From a virus: a DNA stretch of 64,000 bases. The stretch's first letter is position 1. The number at the start of each line of letters is the position of its first letter. Below are positions 5,178 to 29,017 of the stretch, piece by piece. The DNA lies in IMG/VR virus record IMGVR_UViG_3300044712_002165, positions 11,143 through 75,142 of that record, one strand, 5' to 3'. A program made the position numbers and the translations under genes. The notes under the pieces were generated by a model. It had not been told where the DNA came from and ran no database searches. It saw nothing but the letters and a program-made list of their open reading frames with translations.

Positions 5178-5951
5178 ATGGGTGTAAGCGGTCCATCGAG
5201 CAACGCCAGCCAGCCGGTCAGAACCAGCGCTGATTCACCGGACACGCTGCCCCTGCGCGGCTACACGGTTGACCAGCTGAAAAACTACATCATGCGCCAG
5301 CTCGGGGCTCCGACCTGGCACGTGGAGTTGACCAACCAGCAGGTCCTGGATTGCATCCAGGACGCTCTCGGACTCTTCTCGCAGTGGGTGCCGCGGACCA
5401 AAGTCGGGACACTTCAAATGGTCCGCGGGCAGTATCGCTACCTCGAAGGTGAAGATGTCGGCCTCGGCATCGCAAAGATCGACTTCGTTGAACCCAATCC
5501 GGTGCCGACGGAAATCTTCTACGGCAACCTGATCAATCCTGCTCCCCTTTTCCGCCTGGGCCTCGACGAGTACGACACGTTCCTTCGTTGGAGGAAAACG
5601 TGGCAGCGGGTGACCAGCGTCCGCCCCGACTGGTACTACGATGAGTCGGAAGCCGTGCTGTACATCCACAATCCAATCGAGCGTTACCAGGCGGGAATTT
5701 TCATCTACGCGCTCTGGGAGCAGACGCAGAACCTGTCGGTGACGGGAGCCGACTGGGTGAAAAAGTACGCGCTGGCCACGTCGCGCCGTCTGCTCGGCGA
5801 GACCTGGATGAAGTTCAGCGGAGCCATTCCAGGACCAGGTCAAAACATCCAGTTGGACCAGCAGCGCCGCGAATTGGCGCAGCGCGAAATCGACAAGCTT
5901 GAGGAGCAGCTGAAGGGCATGCAGCTGCACACGCCGGCCGTGATCGACTGA
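5178..5951 (+). CDS. neck protein (T4 gp13-like)
   Basis: LKNYIMRQLGAP..VELT..Q..DCI.DAL; WVKKYALA..LG....KF...PG. Confidence 0.85.
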   Translation: MGVSGPSSNASQPVRTSADSPDTLPLRGYTVDQLKNYIMRQLGAPTWHVELTNQQVLDCIQDALGLFSQWVPRTKVGTLQMVRGQYRYLEGEDVGLGIAKIDFVEPNPVPTEIFYGNLINPAPLFRLGLDEYDTFLRWRKTWQRVTSVRPDWYYDESEAVLYIHNPIERYQAGIFIYALWEQTQNLSVTGADWVKKYALATSRRLLGETWMKFSGAIPGPGQNIQLDQQRRELAQREIDKLEEQLKGMQLHTPAVID

Positions 5952-17432: not shown

Positions 17433-18876
17433 CGACATCGGTTTTGCTCGTGCTGTCATTCGCGAGTTTCTGCTCAGTCTTCCGGACGTATACAGCCACC
17501 CGTCGGTTCGGCCACCGGTCCTGGAGGAGATGCAGGCCGACATCGACAGGTTGATCCTCAGCCTGTCGCACCAGTACAGCGATCAGACGTGCATGGCGCT
17601 GCACGTCGATGAACTGGTCTCCGAGGGTAACCTGAAGCTGGCCCAGCTCATCCACAAGGGAGAGCTGAATCGCCAGGTGAATCGGACCAACTTCTTCCGA
17701 TTCTTCAAAACCGCGGTCGCCAACCATTTTCGCAGTCTGGTTCAGCGCCATCGGTTCACCTACAAGCGTACCGGGCAGAAGCCGCCTCCCCGTCAGCGTC
17801 AGAATGAGCTGGTGCGCGCCGATCACGCTGAGGTTGACATGGGCTACCGAAAGCAGGTCGAGGTGTCACTGGACGACGAGGAGTCCGGCATCCAGGCCGC
17901 GGATCAGCACGAAGCTCAAAGCGAAGAAGCGGAAATGCGTGAGGATTTTGAGTCCGTCCTCACGCCCGTCGAGCGTTTGGTATTCCGTCAACTGGTTGAG
18001 CCTGACGAAATAGCTCGCTGCTTGGCAGTCCTCGACGCACAGATCAAACGTAAACCCGGTTCCATTCGGATCGACATCAAGCACGAGCACATGGCTGAAG
18101 CGCTCGGCGTAACCGAGCAGTTTTTCGACGAAACTGTTCTACGGATCAGAGAGAAGATTTCCAAGCGCATGGCCATGACACAAAAAGATCACGCGGATGC
18201 GGCACGTCGGAACATGCTGATACAACAGCTGTCCTGCGTTTTCGGAGTGCAGGTCCCGCCCAACCTCGACGAGATCGTCGTCAAGCGCTTGTTTACGATT
18301 GCCGCACGCGATCAGTACGCGAAGGTGAACACCCAGGTGCGCGATCTGCTCACCGAGTTGGGTGCCAGCGTACCGCAGCCGCACGGAGACGGACTGGCCT
18401 GCTACGGCATCCTCTACAAGCGCAACGACCGTCGGTGCATGGTCTGTGATTTGCGACAGGCGTGCGCCGTGGAAGCTGCCAATGTCGGTCTGGGGAGCAA
18501 GATCACCATCAGTCCAAAGCTGCTGGGCAGTCGAAACACGCGGTATCCCACCGTGCTGCCTTCCGAGGGCGGCAAGGCCCAGTCGCTTGATGCGGAATCG
18601 TTCGACGTGGTTGCCTACCTCGACGAGATGTTCACCCGCTACAACAAGGATGGGTTCATCTACTACCTGGAGAAGGCGACCAACAGTCGGCGACCGCTCT
18701 TCTGCCTGGAGCGAACCAACCCGGTTCGTCTACGATTTTGCAACCCGTCGGTCAGTCTGACGCAGAAGCTGATCGGTAAACCCAAGGCGTGGTACCCTCC
18801 GGATGATCTCGATTCGCGCACGCTATTTCGCCTGATCGAGGAACACGCCGAAGAAATGTTCGCCCGCAATGCCTGA
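17392..18876 (+). CDS. second sigma-factor-like protein with a C-terminal extension
   Basis: FFRFFKTAVANHFRSL..VSLDDE..LTPVERLVF..MAEALGVT, plus a later CxxC..C. Confidence 0.55.
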   Translation: MENMTSTVPTIPSSDIGFARAVIREFLLSLPDVYSHPSVRPPVLEEMQADIDRLILSLSHQYSDQTCMALHVDELVSEGNLKLAQLIHKGELNRQVNRTNFFRFFKTAVANHFRSLVQRHRFTYKRTGQKPPPRQRQNELVRADHAEVDMGYRKQVEVSLDDEESGIQAADQHEAQSEEAEMREDFESVLTPVERLVFRQLVEPDEIARCLAVLDAQIKRKPGSIRIDIKHEHMAEALGVTEQFFDETVLRIREKISKRMAMTQKDHADAARRNMLIQQLSCVFGVQVPPNLDEIVVKRLFTIAARDQYAKVNTQVRDLLTELGASVPQPHGDGLACYGILYKRNDRRCMVCDLRQACAVEAANVGLGSKITISPKLLGSRNTRYPTVLPSEGGKAQSLDAESFDVVAYLDEMFTRYNKDGFIYYLEKATNSRRPLFCLERTNPVRLRFCNPSVSLTQKLIGKPKAWYPPDDLDSRTLFRLIEEHAEEMFARNA

Positions 18877-19231
18877 CGACAACCAAAAGCCGGCACAGCC
18901 AAAAGTGCCGCAGCCAGCGATGACGCGGTTCGAGGCTCAGCGAAAGCTCGGGCTGTTTGGTCCGCACGATTACGTGACGCTCTTTTTGATCGTCAGCAGT
19001 CTCGTGACGCTCTTTTTCTGGTGGCTGTTCGGAGAGCCCTCGGCCGTCAGGGTCCTTGCGGTGCTTGCCGGCATCGTGATCCTGATGCTGTTTTGGATCG
19101 TTGTGCTCTGCTACCGCATCTTGGTCTTCCTCCTGGACATCCAGGCGGACATCAATCTGATGCCAGAGACGGCAGCACGCATCGTCCGTGGCTACCAAAT
19201 GGCCGCAGCCTCAGCGCCTCGCCAAGGCTGA
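18869..19231 (+). CDS. membrane protein with two transmembrane helices (possible holin)
   Basis: Two hydrophobic stretches. Confidence 0.6.
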   Translation: MPDDNQKPAQPKVPQPAMTRFEAQRKLGLFGPHDYVTLFLIVSSLVTLFFWWLFGEPSAVRVLAVLAGIVILMLFWIVVLCYRILVFLLDIQADINLMPETAARIVRGYQMAAASAPRQG

Positions 19232-19530
19232 TGTCGAACGCGTACACCAGGGCTGATCTGATCGCTGCGGTCAGCGAGACCACCAAGCTTCCTCCGGAGC
19301 AAGTCCGTGAAGTCGTTGAGGAGGCTCTTGTGCAGGTCAGTCTCCAGTTGATTGCCGGTCGGCGCGTCGAATTCCGAGGCTTCGGTGTCTTCGAGCCTGT
19401 GACGCGGAAAGCGAAAGTAGGGCGTAATCCGAGACGACCGCAGGCTGGTGACTACATTATTCCTGCCAAGAGGACCGTCAAATTCCGTCCGGGCAAGGAC
19501 CTTGGCCTGGAAATGAATCCGTCAGAGTGA
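19231..19530 (+). CDS. HU/IHF family DNA-binding protein
   Basis: TRADLIAAVS..GRRVEFRGFGVF..RKAKVGRNPR..IPAKRTVKFRPGKDL. Confidence 0.95.
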   Translation: MSNAYTRADLIAAVSETTKLPPEQVREVVEEALVQVSLQLIAGRRVEFRGFGVFEPVTRKAKVGRNPRRPQAGDYIIPAKRTVKFRPGKDLGLEMNPSE

Positions 19531-20583
19531 TTTTGTATACGGTTCAACGTGGATCACGTTGTCCGGGCGCTTGCCGTGCGCGAAAAGGTACAGGACGTAG
19601 CCGCCCCAGCCTGATCCGAGGTACTTCTTCGCGATGGCGTGCGGCATGTCTGGAATAGTATCCATGCCTTCCGCCAGCTGGCAGCGGTAAGACATGTCAA
19701 TGGCATCTACGATGTGACCGATGCTGTTGTTGCGCACGCCTGTAAACGCTACTTCAGCGGCCTTCTCGATCAGCTTGAAGTTTCTGGGCTTGTTTACGAG
19801 TTGAGGCGTGGAGTGCGGCCTTCCTGTCCAGGCGATGCCCATGAGTCCGTTCAGAAAACGTCCGCTTGTCTTCATCTCCAGGATCGGCTTTGACCCAGAA
19901 TTCCAGACGCACAGGCCAGTCTCGTTGATGACGGCCGGGTCCTGCCAGCCGACACCCGCGTCGAGTTCGGACTGGAGCGCGTTTTGACCCAGGAGCAGGC
20001 GGTATGCGGCCGATCCGCCGAGCCCACCTCCCACTTCGTATGGCCAGTCGCTCAGGCTCACGAGAGGGCTGACAGCGCAGTTGACCACGTGCGCACCGTG
20101 AACAGCGAACTTCGGGACATCCAGCCAGCCGCCGGCAAAATCAACGCGCAACGGCACGCGTTCAGGAGCACGCATGTACCTGGCGATTTCGGTGCTGCTG
20201 ATCTGAGCGAATCCGAGCGTCTTGGGCAGTTTGACGTACTGCGCCCCGATCTCGTCGCACAAGGCGCGCTTTTCTTTCTCGTAAAGATCGTCTTCGGTCA
20301 CGGCGAGAATGTCCGGGCGAAGAGCGAGGAACTGTGATTTGAAGTTGAGACCTTCCTCTTCGTCCCTTCCGACGACAACTTTGTCTACGACGCCGAGCGC
20401 TTGCAGGATGTGAACCCTGTGATCGACGTTTAGAGCTGGTCTACGGTGTTTGTGCGCAGCCAGGACGGTATCGGTTGGAACGCAGACGATCAGGAAATTG
20501 CCAAGGGCTTTGGCTGCGGTCAGGAACTCAACGTGACCGCCGTGTAGAATGTCGTAGCAGCCGGACACGAAGACTGTTTTCAT
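19522..20583 (-). CDS. fused cytidylyltransferase-like domain and GHMP sugar kinase (HddA-like)
   Basis: VFVSGCYDILHGGH (HxGH); PLRVDFAGGWLD, GGGLGGSAA, GWQD, K.LGSGWGGY. Confidence 0.85.
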   Translation of the reverse strand: MKTVFVSGCYDILHGGHVEFLTAAKALGNFLIVCVPTDTVLAAHKHRRPALNVDHRVHILQALGVVDKVVVGRDEEEGLNFKSQFLALRPDILAVTEDDLYEKEKRALCDEIGAQYVKLPKTLGFAQISSTEIARYMRAPERVPLRVDFAGGWLDVPKFAVHGAHVVNCAVSPLVSLSDWPYEVGGGLGGSAAYRLLLGQNALQSELDAGVGWQDPAVINETGLCVWNSGSKPILEMKTSGRFLNGLMGIAWTGRPHSTPQLVNKPRNFKLIEKAAEVAFTGVRNNSIGHIVDAIDMSYRCQLAEGMDTIPDMPHAIAKKYLGSGWGGYVLYLFAHGKRPDNVIHVEPYTKSL

Positions 20584-20598
20584 GTTCTGTAGAACCGT

Positions 20599-21498
20599 AT
20601 GAAGATCGCTATCGCCGTGCTGACCTACCGTCGGTCCGAGACCGTCCAGACCATGCTGCGCGGCCTTGGAGAGCACTGTTCTCAGTACCCAATCGCTGTT
20701 TTTGAGGACTGCGGACAGCGCGATGATACCTCACGTGTGCTCGAAAAAGGGCGTGAAAGCCATTTTCGGCCGGAGTACCTGGCCTACGAGTACAAGGCGG
20801 CAGAGGGCGCTAACTTTCCGTTTACAAAAGTGTTCATGGGCGAGCGCAACCTCGGCGTCGCTGGCAACTCCAACCGTGCAATCCACTGGTTCATGACGGA
20901 GACCGATGCCGATTACCTGTGCCTCTGCAACGACGATCTCCACGTCCTGGGCGATTTCGCCAAATTCTACGCCGAGGCGTCGAAGGCTCTCGGCGTCGAG
21001 CACTTCTGCTTCTGCGATTTCACCCACCATCCGTCGTACAAGTGGACGACGTACAACGTGCGCGGGTATCCGGTGAAGTTCATGCCCAGGTTCACCGGCA
21101 TCATGCTCATGTTTACAAGACCGCTGCTGGAACGCGTCGGCTATTTCGACGCTCAGTTCACGCAGTTTGGTGAGGAGCACTGCGACATGACCATTCGGTG
21201 CCGGTTTGCCGGCGGGATCAAACTCGAAGGCCGCGACATGAACTGTCTCGACATCGAGCACCAGCTTTTGAAGCACCAGGAGTGCGGGACAAGCGTGACC
21301 GGTCACGACCGTCAACGTGCCGACCAGGAGGCCAGTGCGATCATGCGCCAGTGTTCCCAGGACTACGGTTGGCGGCACTACCACCGCCCGTACCGGCTGA
21401 TTCTGCCCAAGATGGCGGGCGGCTACAGCGGTGGCGGCATCTCGGTGGCCAACCTCCTGGACTGCGGCTACAAACTGGTCGCCGACCTCGCCGGGTAA
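20599..21498 (+). CDS. glycosyltransferase family 2
   Basis: IAVLTYRR..VFEDCG..NLGVAGNSN..LCNDD..VGYFD..FGEEH. Confidence 0.85.
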   Translation: MKIAIAVLTYRRSETVQTMLRGLGEHCSQYPIAVFEDCGQRDDTSRVLEKGRESHFRPEYLAYEYKAAEGANFPFTKVFMGERNLGVAGNSNRAIHWFMTETDADYLCLCNDDLHVLGDFAKFYAEASKALGVEHFCFCDFTHHPSYKWTTYNVRGYPVKFMPRFTGIMLMFTRPLLERVGYFDAQFTQFGEEHCDMTIRCRFAGGIKLEGRDMNCLDIEHQLLKHQECGTSVTGHDRQRADQEASAIMRQCSQDYGWRHYHRPYRLILPKMAGGYSGGGISVANLLDCGYKLVADLAG

Positions 21499-21508
21499 GT
21501 AGGTTGCC

Positions 21509-22024
21509 ATGCGTACAACCACGGTCAGGCGCGTCTTGGGGGAATCCGGGAAAGAGCCAGCACAGCGCGTTCAGCGAACGTCGCTGCTTCGTGTGCTGGG
21601 GGAGGACGCGCATGGCGAAGTCGCGGATTTCGATCCCAGACACGATGACTCAGAGCCACCGGCTCCGCCTGTACCGAATAAGCCTGGCGATGGGGACTTC
21701 AGTTCCTACGCGGATGTCGAGCAGGCCGAAGCTGACGCTGAACTTGGCCAGGAGGGCGTTTCCTCGGCGCTCAGCACGGCAGTGTCGATGTGGAAAAGCG
21801 GCAGCAAGTACGACGTGGCCGACTACCTGCTCAAGAGCGATTTTCTGTACACGGATTTCGTCCGCATGATCCGCATGCTTCCTGCCGATGAGGCTATCGA
21901 GCTGGGAAGCTTGCTCGACGAGCTGGCTCCGCCGGCTCCTACCGGCGCTACGCCGGAAGATTTGGTTTCTGCGGTGACAGGCACGTCGCCCAGCACCGGC
22001 AAACCTGAAGCTCCTGCGCCATGA
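21509..22024 (+). CDS. hypothetical protein, probable prohead/internal protein
   Basis: Repeated RVLGE motif, acidic, upstream of the head genes. Confidence 0.6.
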   Translation: MRTTTVRRVLGESGKEPAQRVQRTSLLRVLGEDAHGEVADFDPRHDDSEPPAPPVPNKPGDGDFSSYADVEQAEADAELGQEGVSSALSTAVSMWKSGSKYDVADYLLKSDFLYTDFVRMIRMLPADEAIELGSLLDELAPPAPTGATPEDLVSAVTGTSPSTGKPEAPAP

Positions 22025-22740
22025 ATCCTCTCGTCTCTCGTGTCCTTGGTTCGTCCGACGCGCCGGCACCGGTCAGCGAAAGCCGGTCAGCGCCAGTTCG
22101 TGAAGATGTCCCGGTGCCGTGCGCAGTCCTCCCAAGGACGACCTTTCGGGATCGGCTCAAGAAACGGCGCACGGAGGTGGCCAGGGTGGTTGGAGAGTCG
22201 AAAGCCCCTGAAGACGCGCTTATCCCGGACAACGCAGAGGACTATGAAGGGGGCGGACAGCCCTACGAGAAGCAGCAGAAACCGGTGAAGGACGTGGTCA
22301 TGGAACCACGCGATCCGTACGCCGACAAGGAAAAACTAATGACGCCGAGCGCGGCCTTGGTTGCGCCCGACGTGACGCCAGAGGCCGAGCAGCCGATTGA
22401 CCCTGCCAAGGTCCCCAATACCGGCGGTGGCGTGCGCTTTCGTGCTTCCGACGCTGAGCGCGAGCCGGCTGCGCCGAATCAGCCCCTGGCCAAGCGCGCC
22501 ATGGACACGCTCTTGGGCCGTCCTTCTGGGCCGTCGCAGCAGGCTGAGCCGGATGCCGTGGTCACGGCCGAGTCCGCGTACGGCCTGCTGGGGATCAAGA
22601 GCCCGGATCAGCTGCACCTGGAGGAGCGGTCAGGAGCGGTCAGCGGCGAAGCTGCGCTACGACAGGGTACGCCCATGCCCGAGCACAAAAACGGGGACGG
22701 TCAGGCCGTCCTATCCGCGTTCCGACGCTTTGTGGGATGA
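22021..22740 (+). CDS. hypothetical protein, probable prohead/internal protein
   Basis: RVLGS and RVVGES motifs, low complexity. Confidence 0.6.
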   Translation: MNPLVSRVLGSSDAPAPVSESRSAPVREDVPVPCAVLPRTTFRDRLKKRRTEVARVVGESKAPEDALIPDNAEDYEGGGQPYEKQQKPVKDVVMEPRDPYADKEKLMTPSAALVAPDVTPEAEQPIDPAKVPNTGGGVRFRASDAEREPAAPNQPLAKRAMDTLLGRPSGPSQQAEPDAVVTAESAYGLLGIKSPDQLHLEERSGAVSGEAALRQGTPMPEHKNGDGQAVLSAFRRFVG

Positions 22741-23018
22741 GGAACCAGGCCGCATCGGTCTCAACGGGCGCGTCCATGACCGTGCTGGTGACGCGAGAAC
22801 CGTTTTCAGACTACTTCGTCATCCAGCTGGAAAGTGGGCAGTCTGAAGAGCTGGAACCAGAGGAAGCCAGGACCTGGTTTGCAGAGCACGGGGCCAATAT
22901 GGACGCCGTGGAGAAGTGTCTGGACCATGTCTGGAACTTCCGGCAGGCGTCAATAACGATTACAGATTTTCGGTTGCCGAAGTACAAGCTTCACGCGCAC
23001 GCACCCCAGCTGGACTGA
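22737..23018 (+). CDS. hypothetical protein
   Basis: Overlaps the upstream stop (ATGA). Confidence 0.55.
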   Translation: MRNQAASVSTGASMTVLVTREPFSDYFVIQLESGQSEELEPEEARTWFAEHGANMDAVEKCLDHVWNFRQASITITDFRLPKYKLHAHAPQLD

Positions 23019-23135
23019 GCTTTCTGCGCGCAAACTTGATTTGAAAATCAAGTCTCTTAGGTGCGTTTTCGTATTCACTTCACTCGCCAGGTAGTCATTT
23101 AGCGTGCTTAGGCAGCGGGAGTTTCCCCGTTCCAC

Positions 23136-24803
23136 ATGCGACAATACCTTGCTGAAGGCGTAACGGGAGCAACTCCCTTTGTTGTTGATCGCAGCAAGCC
23201 CTTCGTCACGGAGAGCCGCCCCTCTGGCTCCGCATTCACCAAGATACCGGGTCGCTTCAGCGTCTGCGACTGCATCAACGGGAACAACCGCCGCTACAGT
23301 AAGCGCGTCTGGGAGAAGAACTTGAGCGACGGGTCTCCCCTGATGGATTCCATCGCCAAGAGCGCAGCCTTCGGTCTTCTTGAGCATCCCAAAGACGGTA
23401 CGATCAGTCTTCTTTCCCCGATTTCCCACCAGGTCACCTCGGCAAAGCTCATCGAGAGCAAGGGTGACGATGGCAAGCCTGTCTACGAGGTGGTCGGTGA
23501 GATTTCCATCTACGACACCGAGGAAGGCCGCAAGCTGAAGGCCCTCATCGAAGGGGGCTACAACCCTTTGGTTTCCAGCCGAGGATACGGGTCCTTGGTG
23601 AAAGCGCCGGATGGCGTAGACGAGGTGCAGGAGGACTACGTCTGCGAAAGCTGGGACGTGGTCATCAAGCCGTCCTTCTCGACGGCTGAACTCAAACCAA
23701 TGCGGGAGCCCGTGGCATCGACCACCGATTCCCGATTGGCTGCACCTCCGGCCCACGAATCGAACCCTCAGAAGGAGCAGAAGGCACTTGCTGAGGGTCA
23801 GTCAGGTTTGAAGGAGTCGCCTTCAAAGCCGGGCGCAGCCGTCGCTGCCGCCACAACCCAAAAGAGCACCATGGAACTATCCGAAATCAAGAGCCGGCTC
23901 ACGACGCTGCGCGGTATCGATGCCACCAAGCTCGATCCCACACGCGTCTCTGAGAGCTTGCAGGAAGTTGAAACCCTGCACCAGGAGGTTGCTACGTTCG
24001 GTGCTGCTGATCCCAAGCGGGCGTATGAAGCGCACCGCCTGCACCAGCAGCTCGACGCGGTCGCCAATCGCATCAACGAAGCCGTCGCCGCCCCGCGCAA
24101 GCAGGCCGCAAAGCTTCACGAGCACAACACCAAGCTCATGAAGGTCATCAACGCCGTGGCTGCCACCGCGTTGACCTACAGGAAGAAGCTCGGTGAGTCC
24201 CTCGGCAAGGAGGGCAAGACCTCGAAGATCGTCGAGGAACTCACCCGGCGCGGCCAGGGCTGGCACCAGCTCGCCACGGAGCGCAAGGAAGCCCTCGGGA
24301 CCACGACCAAGAAGTTCGAGACCGCCTGCGAGGCCCTCGACATCATGGCGAAGCGCTACCACGAGGACACCACCGCCCTCAGCCGCCGCCTCCTCCAGCT
24401 GGAGTTCAAGCAGCAGCTCGAAGCCAAGCCCGCGCTGGCCGAGAAGCTCTCCAAGGCGACCCGCATGCGCCACGTCGCCGCCGTCCGCGAGGAACTCGAA
24501 GGCAAGAAGCCGGCCAAGGTTTCCGAGGAAGCCGGAGTCGGCAAGCCGTCCGACGGTGCAGCTCCTGGTAAGGAGGGCATCAAGGACGAGAAGCAGAAGG
24601 GTGCCCCCAGCCCCGACGAAGGCAAGGTCGCCGACGCTCCTGGCAAGGTCACCAACGAGTCGAAGACGCCTGCTGCTGACGGCAAGAAGCCCGTCCAGGA
24701 GGACAAGCAGAAGCTTTCGTTCACGACGCCGGGCGATCCCCGCGGCTTGAACGAATCCGTGGAAATGGTGCGCCGGTTGAGCGGTGCCACCGCCAACAAG
24801 TAG
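23136..24803 (+). CDS. prohead protease (T4 gp21-like) fused to a coiled-coil scaffold region
   Basis: NGNNRRY..GLLEHP..ISH..T.EG..LK.L...G....VSSRGYGSL..WDVV..PS, followed by a long helical region. Confidence 0.9.
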   Translation: MRQYLAEGVTGATPFVVDRSKPFVTESRPSGSAFTKIPGRFSVCDCINGNNRRYSKRVWEKNLSDGSPLMDSIAKSAAFGLLEHPKDGTISLLSPISHQVTSAKLIESKGDDGKPVYEVVGEISIYDTEEGRKLKALIEGGYNPLVSSRGYGSLVKAPDGVDEVQEDYVCESWDVVIKPSFSTAELKPMREPVASTTDSRLAAPPAHESNPQKEQKALAEGQSGLKESPSKPGAAVAAATTQKSTMELSEIKSRLTTLRGIDATKLDPTRVSESLQEVETLHQEVATFGAADPKRAYEAHRLHQQLDAVANRINEAVAAPRKQAAKLHEHNTKLMKVINAVAATALTYRKKLGESLGKEGKTSKIVEELTRRGQGWHQLATERKEALGTTTKKFETACEALDIMAKRYHEDTTALSRRLLQLEFKQQLEAKPALAEKLSKATRMRHVAAVREELEGKKPAKVSEEAGVGKPSDGAAPGKEGIKDEKQKGAPSPDEGKVADAPGKVTNESKTPAADGKKPVQEDKQKLSFTTPGDPRGLNESVEMVRRLSGATANK

Positions 24804-24839
24804 CCAACACTCAACGCCCACATCTGAACCCACAAAGCT

Positions 24840-26303
24840 ATGGTTATTCTGCACGAAACAGGACGGCCGATGCTGGCGAGTGAAGGCGGTCACATCAACC
24901 GCTTCACCGACATCCTCGAATGGGGTTACCGCCTGGCTGAGACGCCGGTCGGCACCCCCGAAAAGAACCCCCGCGGTCTCTGGGAAGCCAGGGGCTGGAA
25001 GGAGTTCGTCCAACACATGCCCGAGCACAAGCGCCCCATCGCGGCGATCATGCTCGAAAACTGCCGTTCCCGCTGGGGCCGGCTGGACGAAGTTACCCGG
25101 ACCACAAGTCTCGGTACCTTTGATAAGTGGATCTTCCCGGTGATTGCGAACATGTCCGAGAACGACGTGATCGACCAGCTCGTCGCCATCCAGCCGATGG
25201 CCGGTCCGGTCAGTCAGATCGTTTACATGGACATCGTCACCGGACGCCGGAAGGGCCGCACGCCCGCTGGCGCGCCGATGTGGCGTGCGCTCCAGGGCGC
25301 GGTTGACCGCGACGACGACGCCGACGAGCTGATCCAGGACGAGACCGGCACCTCGAACGGTTCCGGCGTGATCGTGCTGGAATGGACTCCGATTCGCGCC
25401 GGCACGCTGTCCGGCACCGTCGGCTCCATCTCGGTGGCCGACGACGGCAACGGCAACATCATCAACGTGGCGTCCAACGCTACCGTCGGTACCGTCGTGT
25501 ACCAGGGCACGGGCGCGGGCACGATCACCATCGCGTCGCAGGCGAACGCGAGCTACACGCTCACCTACGCCTACAACTCGGAAGGCAACCTGGCGATCCA
25601 GGACTACGAGATGAAGCTCTCATCGACGCCGGTTACGGCGAAGGTGATGAAGCTGAAGACCCTCTGGTCCGAGGAAGCCGACCAGAACCTCCAGGCGATG
25701 TACAACATCAAGGCCGAGAGCGTCCTGCTCAACGCCCTGACCAACGCGCTCCAGTACCAGAAGCACCGCCAGGTGATCTTCGATCTGCGCGCCAAGGCTG
25801 ACGCCGGCTTCGTCGTCTGGGACGCCATCGCTCCGGCGAACGTCAACTACCAGACGCACAAGTTCTCGATCATCGACGCGTTCGAGACCGCCTCGAACTT
25901 CATCTTCGGTGCCACGAACATGGTCGCCGGCAACTGGGTGCTCCTGGGTCTCCAGGCTGCCACCGTGGTGGCCACGCTGCCTCAGTTCGTGCCGAAGAAC
26001 TCCCGGGTCCAGATGCAGGGCATCACCTACATCGGTGATCTTGGAAATAAGAAAATCTTCTCGGACCCGCACTATCCGAACAACGAGTTCCTCGTCGGCC
26101 ACAAGGGCGACCAGTTCCTCACGACCGGGTACGTTCTGGCGGAATATCAAAAATTGTATACAACGCCCGACGTTGTTCTCCCGGACTTCATCCACCAGCG
26201 CGGCTTCGCCACGAGCTTCGCTCGGAAGATGATCAACTCGAAGATGTTCTGCCGCGGATTGGTTCAGAACTCTCCGACGGCGTTCGGCCAGACCATCGGC
26301 TAA
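24840..26303 (+). CDS. major capsid protein (T4 gp23-like)
   Basis: AIMLEN..LVAIQPMAGPVSQIVY..VTAKVMKLKTLWSEEADQNL.A. Confidence 0.95.
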   Translation: MVILHETGRPMLASEGGHINRFTDILEWGYRLAETPVGTPEKNPRGLWEARGWKEFVQHMPEHKRPIAAIMLENCRSRWGRLDEVTRTTSLGTFDKWIFPVIANMSENDVIDQLVAIQPMAGPVSQIVYMDIVTGRRKGRTPAGAPMWRALQGAVDRDDDADELIQDETGTSNGSGVIVLEWTPIRAGTLSGTVGSISVADDGNGNIINVASNATVGTVVYQGTGAGTITIASQANASYTLTYAYNSEGNLAIQDYEMKLSSTPVTAKVMKLKTLWSEEADQNLQAMYNIKAESVLLNALTNALQYQKHRQVIFDLRAKADAGFVVWDAIAPANVNYQTHKFSIIDAFETASNFIFGATNMVAGNWVLLGLQAATVVATLPQFVPKNSRVQMQGITYIGDLGNKKIFSDPHYPNNEFLVGHKGDQFLTTGYVLAEYQKLYTTPDVVLPDFIHQRGFATSFARKMINSKMFCRGLVQNSPTAFGQTIG

Positions 26304-26321
26304 GCGCTGACTGACTTCACG

Positions 26322-26354
26322 AAAAACCCGCAGCCTCACGGCTGCGGGTTTTTT
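26322..26354. terminator. bidirectional intrinsic terminator
   Basis: AAAAA-CCCGCAGCC-TCAC-GGCTGCGGG-TTTTTT, closing both the capsid operon (+) and the array transcript (-). Confidence 0.9.
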
Positions 26355-26362
26355 GTTTACGT

Positions 26363-27088
26363 TCCGGCCCTTCCTATCCTGTTCGGTCGTCTACCTTCCA
26401 ATCCATGACTTTCCTTTCCTGCCTTTCCGTTCCTTTCCGCAACTTTCCTCTGCGCACCGCTCCACTTCGTTCCATTCCGGCCCTTCCCCTCCTGTCCATT
26501 CAGCTCCCTAGCACTTCTAACCGTTCCTCTCCTGCCCTTCCGTAGCCTTCCCTGCCGGTCCGATCCTTTCCTTTCCCATCAGCTCCTTTCCGAGCCGTTC
26601 CTGCCTTTCCATTAGCGTCCACACCATTCCTGCCGGTCCGGTCCCATCCCTTCCTATCCATTCCGCTTCTCGCCATTCCAATCCTCTCCTGCCGCTCCAC
26701 TCCTCTGACCTCCGGTCCGTTTCTATCCCCGCCGCTCCTTTCCTGCCGGTTCATTCCCCTCCATGCCACTTTGCGACGCTCCACTCCTATCGTCTCCTGC
26801 CGGTCCGTTCCCCTCCATGCCGTTCCTCACCGTTTCACTCCTTGCCTCTCCTGCCGGTCCGATCCTTGCCATTCCAGTCCGCTCCTTTTCGTGCCTTGCC
26901 ATTCCTGCCACTCCGATCCGATTCCTTCCACTGCGTTCCGATTCACTCCCTGCCGTTCCTCTCCTGCCCTTCCTCAACGGTCCCATCCACTCCACTTCTC
27001 TCCACACCATTCCTCACGGCTCCATTCCTGCCTTTCCATTAGCGTCCGATCCTATGCAATCCACAACTGTCCAATCCTGCCGTTCCTT
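26363..27088 (-). ncRNA. pentamer-periodic guide-like RNA array with 13 units of AGGA-(NN-GGA)n-NN-GGC; VIPR-like
   Basis: The + strand parses in unbroken 5-nt register as GCC NN (TCC NN)n TCCT. Unit starts are 26367, 26421, 26480, 26534, 26603, 26632, 26691, 26745, 26799, 26853, 26907, 26966 and 27030. All unit lengths are 5n+4. Confidence 0.8.
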
Positions 27089-27090
27089 GT

Positions 27091-27570
27091 TTACGTTTTG
27101 GTACACCGTTTTCTCACTCTATCCACGGTGTCCCAAATTTCATGAAGGTGCGTGAAGAACGCGTATTTTGCCTTCAGCCTGTCAAGCTCGCGGTAGAGCT
27201 GCTCAAGCAGCACTGTACTGTGCTGCGCGCTACTCATGACCTCGCCCACGGGTCTGTACCCTCCGCCTTGTTCGCGGTCCGTGGTGAGGCTGATCCAGGC
27301 AGGAGCCGGGCTGCCGTTTGACAACGTTATTTCGATCTTACCGACGAGGTCTCTCGCCTCGACGATCCAGTATTTTTGAGCAGCTTCTTGAACATCCCAG
27401 GTAAAGTGCCTGTGGCATTCACTCTGTGGATGCGTGCGGGCAAACTCAACGATGTCGGCTAGGTGAAGTTTGCCGTCTTTGGAAGCAGCGCGGATTTTTT
27501 CGATTTCCCGCGCTGCCTTTTTGAGCCGACGTGGTTCAAAAGCGTTGTCCATTGGGAAGCAGAACTTCAA
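27091..27570 (-). CDS. accessory protein of the RAMP/array cassette
   Basis: GKL...IVEFAR..P.S..H.HFTWD...AA..Y....AR.L. It overlaps the RAMP gene end and its stop abuts the array. Confidence 0.75.
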   Translation of the reverse strand: MKFCFPMDNAFEPRRLKKAAREIEKIRAASKDGKLHLADIVEFARTHPQSECHRHFTWDVQEAAQKYWIVEARDLVGKIEITLSNGSPAPAWISLTTDREQGGGYRPVGEVMSSAQHSTVLLEQLYRELDRLKAKYAFFTHLHEIWDTVDRVRKRCTKT

Positions 27571-28264
27571 AGGAGCCCCATCCGCAGCCGTTGGATTGGC
27601 GTGAGTTCATGCGCCCTTCACCGAGGCCGTTTTGAAGACCCATGCGCCACAGCAAATTCGTCACGTCGTTGTGCGTAAACTGGTCCTGGTCCCATCCGAG
27701 AGTGACGACGGCTTCCCATCCGGGTTTCCACAGAGGGCGCGACTTGATGTCGAAAACTCCCGTAGCCAACCGGCCAGGGCCAAGGTGCTGTTCGGGCTCA
27801 CCTTTGGTAATCCGAACGAGCGGGGTATTGTCGAACATGTCGTAGCCATCGGCAATGCACCAGATCGACATTTTGGCCAGCGTCATTTTGTAATCAACCA
27901 GACGGCAAACAGAGATGATGCCGCAACGGATTGCAGTGGCGTTAAAGCCGTTCCAACCTTCGTTGGACACGTAGAGGGCGTCCTTCCAGAGCTGGTCAAA
28001 GTCCTTGGGAGCGCGTGAACCTTTCTTGGTCTTGGAAGTCGTTCCTTCGCGCTGTCTGCCCATGATTGCCTCCTGGGACTTGGTGCTGAACCGCTGAATG
28101 ACCAAAGGCGTGGTGCCTCGAATCGTGAACTGTGCGCGCACCATGTTCGGCGCATTGACCTGCACCTCTTTGGTGACGACTCGACTGGTTTCGTCCGGTG
28201 CGGGCGATCCGTTCGTCGCGGCTGATGTTCCGTTGTTGCGTGTCGGTTTGAGCGTTGCTTTCAT
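27536..28264 (-). CDS. Cas7/RAMP-like RNA-binding protein (Vipr-like)
   Basis: beta1 QFTIRGTTPLVIQ, GFNATAIRCGI (cf. RAMP iPgsslKG), and a C-terminal Gly-rich loop GLGEGRMNSRQSNGCGWGSFEV. Confidence 0.78.
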   Translation of the reverse strand: MKATLKPTRNNGTSAATNGSPAPDETSRVVTKEVQVNAPNMVRAQFTIRGTTPLVIQRFSTKSQEAIMGRQREGTTSKTKKGSRAPKDFDQLWKDALYVSNEGWNGFNATAIRCGIISVCRLVDYKMTLAKMSIWCIADGYDMFDNTPLVRITKGEPEQHLGPGRLATGVFDIKSRPLWKPGWEAVVTLGWDQDQFTHNDVTNLLWRMGLQNGLGEGRMNSRQSNGCGWGSFEVLLPNGQRF

Positions 28265-28290
28265 TGTGTTGTACTCTGGGGTACGGCGCA

Positions 28291-28363
28291 TACATTTTGT
28301 AAACGTTTACATTTTGTCAAACAGTTTTCTGCAATTGACGCATGCGCTGCTGAACCGTAACCT
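28291..28363. promoter_or_regulatory. divergent promoter region
   Basis: Minus strand: TTGACA (28315-28320) followed by the palindrome TGTAAACGTTTACA. Plus strand: TTGACG-N17-TAACCT. Confidence 0.55.
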
Positions 28364-28372
28364 TCCGACAGG

Positions 28373-29017
28373 GTGGAAACCAAAGCTCAGCAGATCGCGG
28401 AGATGCTTTTGGAGCACAGGCGCTACGAAGCGTTACGTCCGGCTACGCCGCTTACCGCAGCGCAGCTCCTGGAGATGCCGCAGCACTACCCGGGCAACGT
28501 CATCTATCAGTCCAAGCTCAAATTCGTGCCGATCTCGCGCCGGAATTTCGGCAGCCACATCGTGATCGGCCAGGACGGTTTCTACACCTACGTCGTCGAT
28601 CTTTCCCAGACGACGGGTTTCGTTTTCGTCAGCGCGGACATCGAGTCGGAGGCGCTCGAATTCGTCCCTGTCATGCAACTTCAGCTGCGCAAGTCGTCGC
28701 TTGACGGACTGCGCCAAGCCTTTCGCCTGCGTATACAGGAAGAGCATGCGCGCAAGGGCATCGCGACGACGTGGTACGTGTTGTTTGCTCAGACGTTCGG
28801 CGGTATCGTTTCCGACTTTGAGCACCTGGAAGGTGGCAAGAATTTGTGGCGTGCTTTTGTAGACAAAGCTGCGTACCGCGGACTGACGATTCACGCTGTT
28901 GACACTTTGACAGGTGAATCAGTTCCAGTAGGCCCGGAAACGTCGGATGATGCGATCTGGTCAACGGATCAGAGTAAGAGGAGTACCGTTTTGGTACTTC
29001 GCAGGTCAGCGCGTTAG
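28373..29017 (+). CDS. GNAT-like acetyltransferase
   Basis: IQEEHARKGIATTWY (R/QxxGxA acetyl-CoA motif), IVSD..H.EGGKNLW. Confidence 0.6.
   Translation: METKAQQIAEMLLEHRRYEALRPATPLTAAQLLEMPQHYPGNVIYQSKLKFVPISRRNFGSHIVIGQDGFYTYVVDLSQTTGFVFVSADIESEALEFVPVMQLQLRKSSLDGLRQAFRLRIQEEHARKGIATTWYVLFAQTFGGIVSDFEHLEGGKNLWRAFVDKAAYRGLTIHAVDTLTGESVPVGPETSDDAIWSTDQSKRSTVLVLRRSAR

What the first reader, a model, noticed from the sequence alone, without database searches (positions are those of the whole stretch)
26363..27088. Array grammar: 13 units, all of length 5n+4, carrying 132 variable dinucleotides in perfect register
On the + strand each unit is GCC NN (TCC NN)n TCC[T/G]. Lengths are 54, 59, 54, 69, 29, 59, 54, 54, 54, 54, 59, 64 and 49 nt, holding 10, 11, 10, 13, 5, 11, 10, 10, 10, 10, 11, 12 and 9 dinucleotides. 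The triplet tolerates substitutions (TTC, GCC, ACC, TGC and others), but I found no indel breaking the phase within a unit. The NN positions are fully variable. This fits selection on register and information content rather than microsatellite slippage. The GGC-AGGA junction, which breaks the 5-nt phase by one base, is the likely processing or boundary signal (inference).
Basis: seen in the sequence. Interest (0 to 1): 0.85.

Follow-up and report, generated by a model that had tools for sequence, protein, structure and literature searches.

The report
Phage VIPR guide-RNA array, GGA type
The five-base-periodic array is real. It is the guide-RNA array of a VIPR system, a phage-borne relative of CRISPR first described in 2026 preprints, so it is a well-supported new example of a known kind rather than something new.

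Summary
There are 13 abutting units of 5n+4 nt and 132 variable dinucleotides. Every one of the 12 phase breaks is -1, at TCC-T/G-GCC (RNA sense GGC-A/C-GGA).

The array matches the 'staggered vrRNA array' of VIPR systems (bioRxiv 10.64898/2026.04.26.720920, fig. S18 legend). Four results support this:
- The next two genes on the G-rich strand are a Cas7/RAMP-fold protein (Z 10.8 to Csm3) and a conserved small partner gene. The RAMP protein's C-terminus aligns to phage SUSP1 Vipr (E 9e-6).
- A DNA-pattern scan found 37 further arrays in 29 viral contigs with the same grammar (309 of 339 shifts are -1). About 20 of those loci carry homologues of one or both genes beside the arrays, on the G-rich strand.
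- The whole 2-kb cassette is absent from a close relative.
- Read with the published one-base-skip rule, guide 1 matches that relative's major capsid gene in frame at 18/20. It matches the phage's own gene at 16/20. The difference is a serine codon, AGC versus TCG.

Differences from the type system: the fixed triplet is mostly GGA, not GGY, and there is no structured 3' tail. Processing at the junctions is untested. Targets of the other 12 guides were not found.

This scan has already noted VIPR systems in at least 139 other genomes.

The parts
26363..27088 (-). vrRNA array. In RNA sense it is 13 abutting guides of the form A-GGA-(NN-GGA)n-NN-GGC, plus a mini-unit at the 5' end.
   Evidence: grammar and independent HMM parse. 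(period 5 and 54/59). (the G-rich strand folds worse than shuffles, z +1.95).
26367..26420 (-). Guide unit 1 (54 nt, 10 NN, several degenerate triplets). It decodes as K/N-K/N-I/M-F/L-S/R-D/E-P-H/Q-Y-S/R.
   Evidence: It matches the phage's own capsid gene at 16/20 nt and 9/10 amino acids. It matches the capsid gene of relative L149 at 18/20.
26421..26479 (-). Guide unit 2 (59 nt, 11 NN)
26480..26533 (-). Guide unit 3 (54 nt, 10 NN)
26534..26602 (-). Guide unit 4 (69 nt, 13 NN). Read on the C-rich strand it decodes as L-V-L-L-G-D/E-F/L-F/L-H/Q-A-F/L-D/E-V.
   Evidence: No convincing target was found.
26603..26631 (-). Guide unit 5 (29 nt, 5 NN). It is a chimera of parts of units 13 and 12.
   Evidence: 26598-26620 is identical to 27025-27047, and 26618-26631 to 27001-27014
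26632..26690 (-). Guide unit 6 (59 nt, 11 NN)
26691..26744 (-). Guide unit 7 (54 nt, 10 NN)
26745..26798 (-). Guide unit 8 (54 nt, 10 NN). It is a sister of unit 9, sharing 5 of 10 NN.
26799..26852 (-). Guide unit 9 (54 nt, 10 NN)
   Evidence: An exact scan of viral contigs found nothing.
26853..26906 (-). Guide unit 10 (54 nt, 10 NN)
26907..26965 (-). Guide unit 11 (59 nt, 11 NN)
26966..27029 (-). Guide unit 12 (64 nt, 12 NN)
   Evidence: Scans found nothing.
27030..27078 (-). Guide unit 13 (49 nt, 9 NN)
27091..27570 (-). vap-like accessory gene (159 aa, or 153 aa from the inner ATG). It ends 3 nt before the array.
   Evidence: Homologues lie beside arrays in about 18 loci that were fetched by DNA pattern alone. 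AF2 pLDDT is 89. Fold matches are only weak and winged-helix-like. No Pfam, NCBIfam or PADLOC hit. PHROGs gives phrog_15946, function unknown.
27536..28291 (-). vipr gene: a stand-alone RAMP/Cas7-fold protein (251-aa ORF; homologues are about 208-230 aa)
   Evidence: AF2 pLDDT 81. The top Foldseek hits are all Csm3/Cas7 (E 5e-6). VIA Z 10.8, rmsd 4.0, 151 aligned residues, to 9g9f_D. hhalign to SUSP1 Vipr gives probability 83%, E 9e-6. At least 275 homologues, none with a Pfam domain.
26327..26356 (.). Hairpin with A-run and T-run flanks. It can terminate the capsid gene on the + strand and the vipr-vap-array transcript on the - strand.
   Evidence: sequence. (minus-strand terminator-like site at 26341-26328).
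26353..26363 (+). First copy of the 11-bp direct repeat TTGTTTACGTT that brackets the array. Its first 8 bp are also the left border of the cassette insertion.
27087..27097 (+). Second copy of the 11-bp direct repeat TTGTTTACGTT
26364..28332 (-). The whole VIPR cassette (array, vap, vipr and upstream region). It is absent from the close relative L149, where TTGTTTAC is followed directly by AATTGACGCA.
28291..28327 (.). 17-nt tandem repeat (2.1 copies) just upstream of vipr. It may be a promoter or operator (inference).
26049..26077 (+). Near-cognate site of guide 1 in the phage's own major capsid gene (KKIFSDPHYP). It is in frame, with the skipped bases at the wobble positions.

Best explanation
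The array is a staggered vrRNA (guide RNA) array of a phage-encoded VIPR system.

1. It is transcribed from the minus strand as the 3' part of the vipr-vap operon and ends at the hairpin at 26356-26327.
2. The RNA is a run of GGA-NN pentamers.
3. One Vipr (Cas7-like RAMP) protomer binds per pentamer and buries the GGA. This exposes the NN pairs, which read double-stranded target DNA while skipping every third base, usually the codon wobble position.
4. Binding silences the target gene of a competing phage.
5. At each GGC-A-GGA junction the next GG lies 4 nt away instead of 5. The protein filament cannot continue in register there, so each 5n+4 unit acts as a separate guide of 5 to 13 NN.

Shown here: the grammar and its conservation; the gene partnership and its orientation; the RAMP fold and homology to SUSP1 Vipr; the lack of RNA structure; the cassette's accessory nature; and one near-perfect natural target.

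Taken from the preprints, for the type II SUSP1 system only: filament formation, the one-base-skip rule and silencing.

Inferred: that this clade works the same way, that the array is transcribed, and that the junction delimits or is cut between guides.
For: - Grammar.
- Family: 37 arrays in 29 contigs; 309 of 339 shifts are -1; modal unit lengths are 49, 54, 59 and 64 nt, which is 9-12 NN.
- Gene partnership: about 20 of roughly 35 array-bearing loci fetched by DNA pattern alone carry vipr and/or vap homologues beside the arrays, always on the G-rich strand. None of about 24 array-less loci do.
- RAMP fold.
- Homology: the profile aligns to the experimentally studied SUSP1 Vipr across the G-loop. 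The SUSP1 locus itself shows GGT-NN guides.
- Cultured phages: Cy-LDV1 (Vipr 45% identical) and Gordonia phage ODay carry GGC-NN arrays with the same -1 junctions.
- Literature: staggered arrays with a 1-nt overlap, alternative repeat consensuses, and the one-base-skip rule.
- RNA structure: the G-rich strand is less structured than 19 of 20 shuffles.
- NN composition fits codon positions 1-2 (lnL -361) better than positions 2-3 or 3-1 (-396, -420).
- Target: guide 1 matches the phage's own capsid gene at 9/10 amino acids; 0 of 800 shuffles or random draws reach this. A metagenome scan with the first 9 NN gave 19 hits. One of them is the homologous in-frame site in a capsid gene 98.6% identical in protein. 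There the match is 18/20, and that phage lacks the cassette.
Against: - No RNA data cover the array, so the strand, transcription and processing are inferred.
- The fixed triplet is GGA in 74% of positions. The SUSP1 structure paper says the third-base pocket excludes purines. The strict GGY definition is therefore not met, and the G-loop differs.
- There is no structured 3' tail.
- Only 1 of 13 guides has a plausible target. Its own-genome site also reaches 16/20, which equals the preprint's 80% cut-off, so self-discrimination rests on two bases.
- The vap gene shows no similarity to SUSP1 vap1.
- The staggered architecture itself has not been confirmed experimentally according to the preprint text.
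Confidence: 0.88

Rival explanations
1. A decoy or sponge RNA rich in GGA motifs titrates an RNA-binding protein. The protein could be CsrA/RsmA, which recognises GGA, or a TRAP-like ring that binds triplets spaced by 2 nt. A 54-nt unit with 11 triplets would fit an 11-mer ring.
For: There are 145 GGA-like triplets at 5-nt spacing on an unstructured G-rich strand. Six of the 13 units are 54 nt long, which is 11 triplets.
Against: Across the family, unit lengths range from 39 to 124 nt with no fixed count. The conserved neighbours are a RAMP protein and its partner, not CsrA or TRAP. The NN carry codon-like composition, and one guide decodes to a gene. Rfam finds nothing.
Confidence: 0.03
2. 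It is a microsatellite-like pentanucleotide repeat, or a 54-nt tandem duplication, with no function. It would be kept by slippage and duplication only.
For: Tandem Repeats Finder reports a 54-nt period with 74-77% matches over 26737-26919. Units 8 and 9 are sisters, and unit 5 is a chimera. Duplication and recombination therefore do shape the array.
Against: Slippage would homogenise NN, yet NN entropy is 1.8-2.0 bits while the triplet stays fixed. All 12 shifts are -1 at one conserved motif. The same holds in 37 arrays of unrelated sequence. The arrays are strictly co-oriented with two conserved genes.
Confidence: 0.02
3. It is a DNA-level signal, such as a binding array for a phage DNA-binding protein, a packaging or replication element, or a curvature or G-quadruplex / i-motif element. 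It would act without being a guide RNA.
For: It lies just after the capsid gene, and GG tracts every 5 nt could form two-tetrad quadruplexes (inference only). No RNA evidence exists.
Against: The fixed orientation relative to vipr/vap in every locus argues for a strand-specific, transcribed product. Close relatives lack the whole cassette, so it is not a core packaging or replication element. Homologous systems are shown in the preprints to make RNA that binds Vipr.
Confidence: 0.04

Closest known systems
VIPR systems with staggered vrRNA arrays (bioRxiv 10.64898/2026.04.26.720920, fig. S18 legend and type-classification methods)
   Same: A lone RAMP gene and a small accessory gene on a phage. 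Pentamer repeats with fixed GG and variable NN. Adjacent guides offset by one base, so that the end of one guide is the start of the next (units of 5n+4). No CRISPR-type repeats. The cassette is accessory.
   Different: The third base of the triplet is mostly A (74%), not a pyrimidine. The preprint mentions 'NNNGG' and other alternative consensuses, but the logos could not be read here. Which of the seven VIPR types this is could not be decided.
Type II VIPR of Escherichia phage SUSP1 (same preprint; companion papers 10.64898/2026.04.26.720927 and 10.64898/2026.10.15.759431)
   Same: Vipr homology across the C-terminal strand, helix and G-loop (hhalign E 9e-6). The gene order vipr, vap, then downstream guides. 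The 5-nt code and 9-16 repeats per guide. Targets in competing mobile elements.
   Different: SUSP1 guides are GGU/GGC-NN, and each ends in a conserved hairpin/pseudoknot tail. Here the triplet is GGA, there is no tail, and guides abut. The G-loop reads GLGEGR plus an 8-residue insertion carrying GWG, against GVGDWRP in SUSP1. The vap genes are unrelated. The apparent target here is the major capsid gene of a near-identical phage, not a satellite.
Class 1 CRISPR Cas7 (Csm3/Cmr4) backbone filaments on crRNA
   Same: The same RAMP fold (Z about 10). One protomer binds per fixed step of guide RNA, with periodically unpaired bases.
   Different: The step is 6 nt with one flipped base, not 5 nt with three buried bases. 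CRISPR uses contiguous spacers between 25-40-nt repeats, and cas1/cas2 and other cas genes accompany it. None of these is seen here.
TRAP-trp leader RNA and CsrB/RsmZ sponge RNAs
   Same: Triplet motifs repeated on unstructured RNA. In TRAP sites the spacer is 2-3 nt.
   Different: No such protein is linked to the arrays. The unit size is not fixed. The NN carry sequence information. This is a resemblance in form only.

Membership tests
VIPR system | A stand-alone RAMP (Vipr) gene next to the repeats | tested here: met
   The ORF at 27536-28291(-) has a Cas7/Csm3 fold: Foldseek E 5e-6; VIA Z 10.8, rmsd 4.0, 151 residues aligned. Its profile aligns to SUSP1 Vipr at probability 83%, E 9e-6.
VIPR system | Glycine-rich loop and thumb of RAMPs | tested here: inconclusive
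   The C-terminal region has invariant glycines (G218, G222, G226, G235, G237, G239), W238 and R227. It aligns with the SUSP1 G-loop. The thumb was not examined separately.
VIPR system | A small accessory gene (vap) in the same operon | tested here: met
   The ORF at 27091-27570(-) overlaps the end of vipr. Homologues lie beside arrays in about 18 loci. It is not related to SUSP1 vap1. Its fold is only weakly winged-helix-like.
VIPR system | Tandem pentamers with fixed GG and hypervariable NN, at least 4 units and typically 9-16 per guide | tested here: met
   132 pentamers in guides of 5-13 NN. The two G positions have entropy 0.45 and 1.02 bits; NN has 1.96 and 1.83 bits.
VIPR system | Third base of the triplet is a pyrimidine (GGY) | tested here: not met
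   A in 108, C in 26, U in 11 and G in 0 of 145 triplets. Across the family the C-strand triplets are TCC 1625 and GCC 755. The preprint allows 'a related consensus' and NNNGG repeats. This is therefore a variant, not an exclusion.
VIPR system | Staggered architecture: neighbouring guides offset or overlapping by 1 nt | tested here: met
   12 of 12 shifts are -1 in the window, and 309 of 339 in the family. This matches the fig. S18 legend.
VIPR system | A structured 3' tail capping each vrRNA (type II) | tested here: not met
   Units abut with only GGC-A-GGA between them. The array RNA is less structured than shuffles. SUSP1 shows hairpin tails. A tail is not required in the staggered type.
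VIPR system | NN read targets by the one-base-skip rule, with skipped bases at codon wobble positions | tested here: inconclusive
   Guide 1 matches in frame at 18/20 in the capsid gene of relative L149 and at 16/20 in the phage's own gene. NN composition fits codon positions 1-2. The other 12 guides have no target.
VIPR system | vrRNA is expressed and bound by Vipr; target DNA is bound and silenced | not testable with these tools
   The only public run holding any of the stretch gave one 203-nt contig inside vipr.
CRISPR-Cas | Direct repeats of about 25-40 nt alternating with contiguous spacers, plus cas1/cas2 or effector modules | tested here: not met
   The period is 5 nt with 5n+4 units. 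The two neighbouring genes have no PADLOC, Pfam or NCBIfam Cas family hit.
CsrA/TRAP-type protein-sponge RNA | Linked to, or sized for, the cognate RNA-binding protein (a fixed 11-12 triplets for TRAP; GGA in hairpin loops for CsrA) | tested here: not met
   Unit length varies from 39 to 124 nt. There are no hairpins. The conserved partner is a RAMP protein.

The most novel reading that the evidence does not exclude
This clade of Vipr proteins has a re-shaped third-base pocket that prefers adenine (GGA > GGC >> GGU). It uses tail-less guides whose ends are set purely by a one-base break in the protein filament's register.

Because the code ignores wobble bases, such a phage could tell a near-identical rival from itself only at sites where codon families differ. 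Here that is serine AGC against TCG in the capsid gene. Guide choice would then be driven toward such sites.
Probability: 0.35. Interest if true: 0.5.

Novelty: new member of a known kind. Interest (0 to 1): 0.3.

Why it matters
It adds a well-documented natural example to a class of RNA-guided systems that is only months old.

- It quantifies the staggered grammar: 91% of 339 junctions are -1.
- The purine GGA triplet is common in one Vipr clade, although the SUSP1 protein is reported to exclude purines.
- It gives one natural guide-target pair, in which a large T4-like phage appears to aim at the capsid gene of a sibling phage that lacks the cassette.
- That pair raises a testable question about how a code blind to wobble bases separates self from close kin.

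None of this changes the published picture.

Tried and rejected
- TRAP-like ring or CsrA sponge. This was my first idea, from the 11 triplets per 54-nt unit. I dropped it once family unit lengths proved variable and the RAMP neighbour appeared.
- Rfam at a permissive threshold gave nothing relevant.
- A coding reading was rejected. Period 5 and 5n+4 units cannot keep a reading frame, and the ORFs in the array are short shadow ORFs.
- Self-targets. The best skip-1 scores in the phage's own 75-kb contig are no better than the skip-0 and skip-2 controls, apart from the guide-1 site.
- Exact NNx scans of viral contigs found nothing for guide 4 (full), guide 1 (full), guide 12 (first 10 NN) and guide 9 (first 9 NN).
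- 70 capsid relatives and two near-complete relatives (G001, G002) gave no guide match above controls, at nucleotide or amino-acid level.
- The guide-4 core in genome contigs gave one hit, in an Elusimicrobiales MAG. It lies antisense in a class-III aminotransferase gene and out of wobble register, so I judged it chance.
- Guide 13 matches 15/18 at 20578-20603, over a start codon in the phage's own genome. This is at chance level.
- RNA evidence: no RNA holder is listed. One wastewater run of uncertain kind holds a single 203-nt contig inside vipr.
- vap fold: no match at E <= 0.001. Only weak winged-helix-like rows and a helical hairpin, Z <= 6.9.
- PDB sequence search with Vipr gave no hit. 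NCBIfam and PADLOC gave none.
The metagenome record behind L149 is not held for whole-record searches. The rest of the rival genome could therefore not be scanned.
- The preprint's supplementary files and figures are not held, so the VIPR type could not be assigned.

Full report
THE OBSERVATION

I wrote a five-phase hidden Markov parse that was given only the column preferences. It recovered the same boundaries and found 12 phase shifts, every one of them -1, with none inside a unit.

Autocorrelation is 0.51 at lag 5, against 0.33 expected, and 0.57 at lag 54. Column entropies are 1.10, 1.02 and 0.45 bits for the triplet and 1.96 and 1.83 bits for NN. The junction pattern is absent from 100 shuffles of the window.

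SETTING

The window is part of a 75-kb viral contig that is about one third complete. It has about 60% G+C and carries a T4-type prohead protease and Gp23-type capsid gene.

The array lies between two features. On one side is the capsid gene, which ends at 26303 and is followed by a hairpin with A- and T-runs. On the other side are two overlapping minus-strand ORFs, 27536-28291 and 27091-27570. The second of these stops 3 nt before the array.

Read on the minus strand, the array is GGA-NN repeated. It continues the two genes and ends at a terminator-like site at 26341-26328.

A FAMILY OF ARRAYS

Scanning 2.9 million viral contigs for one junction-containing pattern gave 61 loci. The phase parse found 37 non-redundant arrays in 29 of them:
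- 309 of 339 shifts are -1.
- 232 of 302 internal units have a length of 4 mod 5.
- The modal lengths are 49, 54, 59, 64 and 44 nt.
- The junction consensus is YTCCTGCC, which is GGCAGGA in RNA sense.

Unit length is not fixed. That removed my first idea, a binding site for an 11-subunit ring like TRAP.

These loci were fetched by DNA pattern alone. About 20 of them nevertheless encode homologues of one or both minus-strand ORFs right beside the arrays, always on the G-rich strand. None of about 24 array-less loci does.

THE PROTEINS

The 251-aa ORF has no Pfam, PDB-sequence, NCBIfam or PADLOC match. It does have hundreds of unannotated homologues.

Its AlphaFold model (pLDDT 81) matches only CRISPR backbone RAMPs. 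Foldseek's top hits are all Csm3/Cas7 (E 5e-6). VIA-align gives Z 10.8, rmsd 4.0 over 151 residues, to a Csm3 chain.

The 159-aa partner folds confidently (pLDDT 89). It gives only weak winged-helix-like matches plus a helical hairpin.

WHAT IS KNOWN

The literature search then found the source: bioRxiv 10.64898/2026.04.26.720920 and its companion 10.64898/2026.04.26.720927.

These describe phage-borne VIPR systems, which comprise:
- a lone ancestral RAMP (Vipr);
- an accessory gene (vap);
- vrRNAs of 9-16 pentamers, in which a fixed GGY is buried by the protein filament and the NN read double-stranded DNA while skipping every third base, usually the codon wobble.

Among other architectures, the preprint names 'staggered arrays with overlapping vrRNAs', in which guides derive from positions overlapping by 1 nt. 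This is the 5n+4 grammar. It also lists alternative repeat consensuses (NNNGG and others). A later preprint reports further non-canonical pentamers.

I located the SUSP1 locus in GenBank record KT454805.2. It shows GGT-NN guides with hairpin tails. The profile of my protein family aligns to SUSP1 Vipr over the C-terminal 53 residues, including the G-loop (probability 83%, E 9e-6). The vap genes are unrelated.

Two cultured phages carry unannotated GGC-NN arrays with the same -1 junctions. They are Cyanophage Cy-LDV1, whose Vipr is 45% identical to this one, and Gordonia phage ODay.

TESTS OF THE CODE

The G-rich RNA folds worse than 19 of 20 shuffles (z +1.95). That is expected for a protein-bound linear guide.

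NN composition fits codon positions 1-2 of this phage's genes (lnL -361) much better than positions 2-3 or 3-1 (-396, -420). It beats a uniform model (-366) only slightly.

No guide has a good match in the phage's own contig, with one exception. Guide 1 decodes to KKIF(S/R)DPHY(S/R) and lies in frame on the phage's own capsid sequence KKIFSDPHYP. That is 16/20 bases and 9/10 residues, and none of 800 permutations or random draws reaches 9.

A metagenome scan with the first nine NN of guide 1 returned 19 hits, about the number expected by chance. One hit (L149) is the homologous site of a capsid gene 98.6% identical in protein. There the serine codon is AGC instead of TCG, which gives 18/20.

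That phage is 75% identical in DNA over 8.3 kb. It lacks the entire cassette: in it, TTGTTTAC is followed directly by AATTGACGCA, and in the window these two motifs flank 26364-28332. Among 70 capsid relatives, only one has a vipr-vap pair at this place.

The cassette is therefore accessory. Its one decodable guide points at a sibling phage that lacks it. This fits the inter-phage conflict role proposed in the preprints.

The phage's own site also reaches the preprint's 80% cut-off. Self-discrimination would rest on two bases, and this is unresolved.

LIMITS

- Twelve guides have no target. The one bacterial hit for guide 4 looks like chance.
- No RNA data cover the array.
- The triplet is GGA in 74% of positions. 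The SUSP1 structure paper says the third-base pocket excludes purines. Here the aligned G-loop differs and carries an 8-residue insertion. That this explains the purine preference is inference.
- According to the preprint text, the staggered architecture has not been confirmed by RNA sequencing. Cleavage or delimitation at GGC-A-GGA therefore remains a prediction.

VERDICT

The object is a member of a kind published in 2026. This scan has already noted that kind in at least 139 other genomes.

What is particular here is the GGA triplet, the tail-less abutting guides, and a capsid-gene target in a near-identical rival.

Noticed in passing
window 26353-26363 and 27087-27097: An 11-bp direct repeat (TTGTTTACGTT) brackets the array. 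Its first 8 bp are also the left border of the cassette insertion relative to L149. This suggests the array, or the whole cassette, moved by short-homology recombination.
   Followed up: partly
window 18238-28980 versus L149:1-8849: The relative L149 is only 75% identical in DNA over the capsid region, yet its capsid protein is 98.6% identical, so synonymous sites are near saturation. The 586 nt beyond the cassette (28395-28980) are 98% identical. The genome is therefore a mosaic around the insertion point.
   Followed up: partly
window 26598-26631: The short 29-nt unit is a chimera. 26598-26620 is identical to 27025-27047, and 26618-26631 to 27001-27014.
   Followed up: yes
window 28291-28327: A 17-nt tandem repeat (2.1 copies) lies directly upstream of vipr and of the divergent ORF at 28373. 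It may be a promoter or operator.
   Followed up: no
window 20578-20603: Guide 13 matches 15/18 under the skip rule across the start codon of the glycosyltransferase-like ORF 20599-21498 in the phage's own genome. Such scores occur by chance at this rate.
   Followed up: partly
L064:4694-4877 and 5501-5635 (Cyanophage Cy-LDV1, BK059895.1); L065:3631-3830 (Gordonia phage ODay, MW534375.1): Cultured or named phages carry unannotated GGC-NN staggered arrays next to 'hypothetical protein' genes that are homologous to this Vipr.
   Followed up: partly
L075:2560-3340: This is the only capsid relative with vipr and vap at the same site. It has a much more degenerate pentamer array (GGC/GCA-like triplets) that my parse did not call.
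   Followed up: partly
L019:1166-3477 and L060:2811-4093: Some viral contigs carry very long arrays of the same grammar: 44 and 22 parsed segments, 2.3 and 1.3 kb.
   Followed up: no
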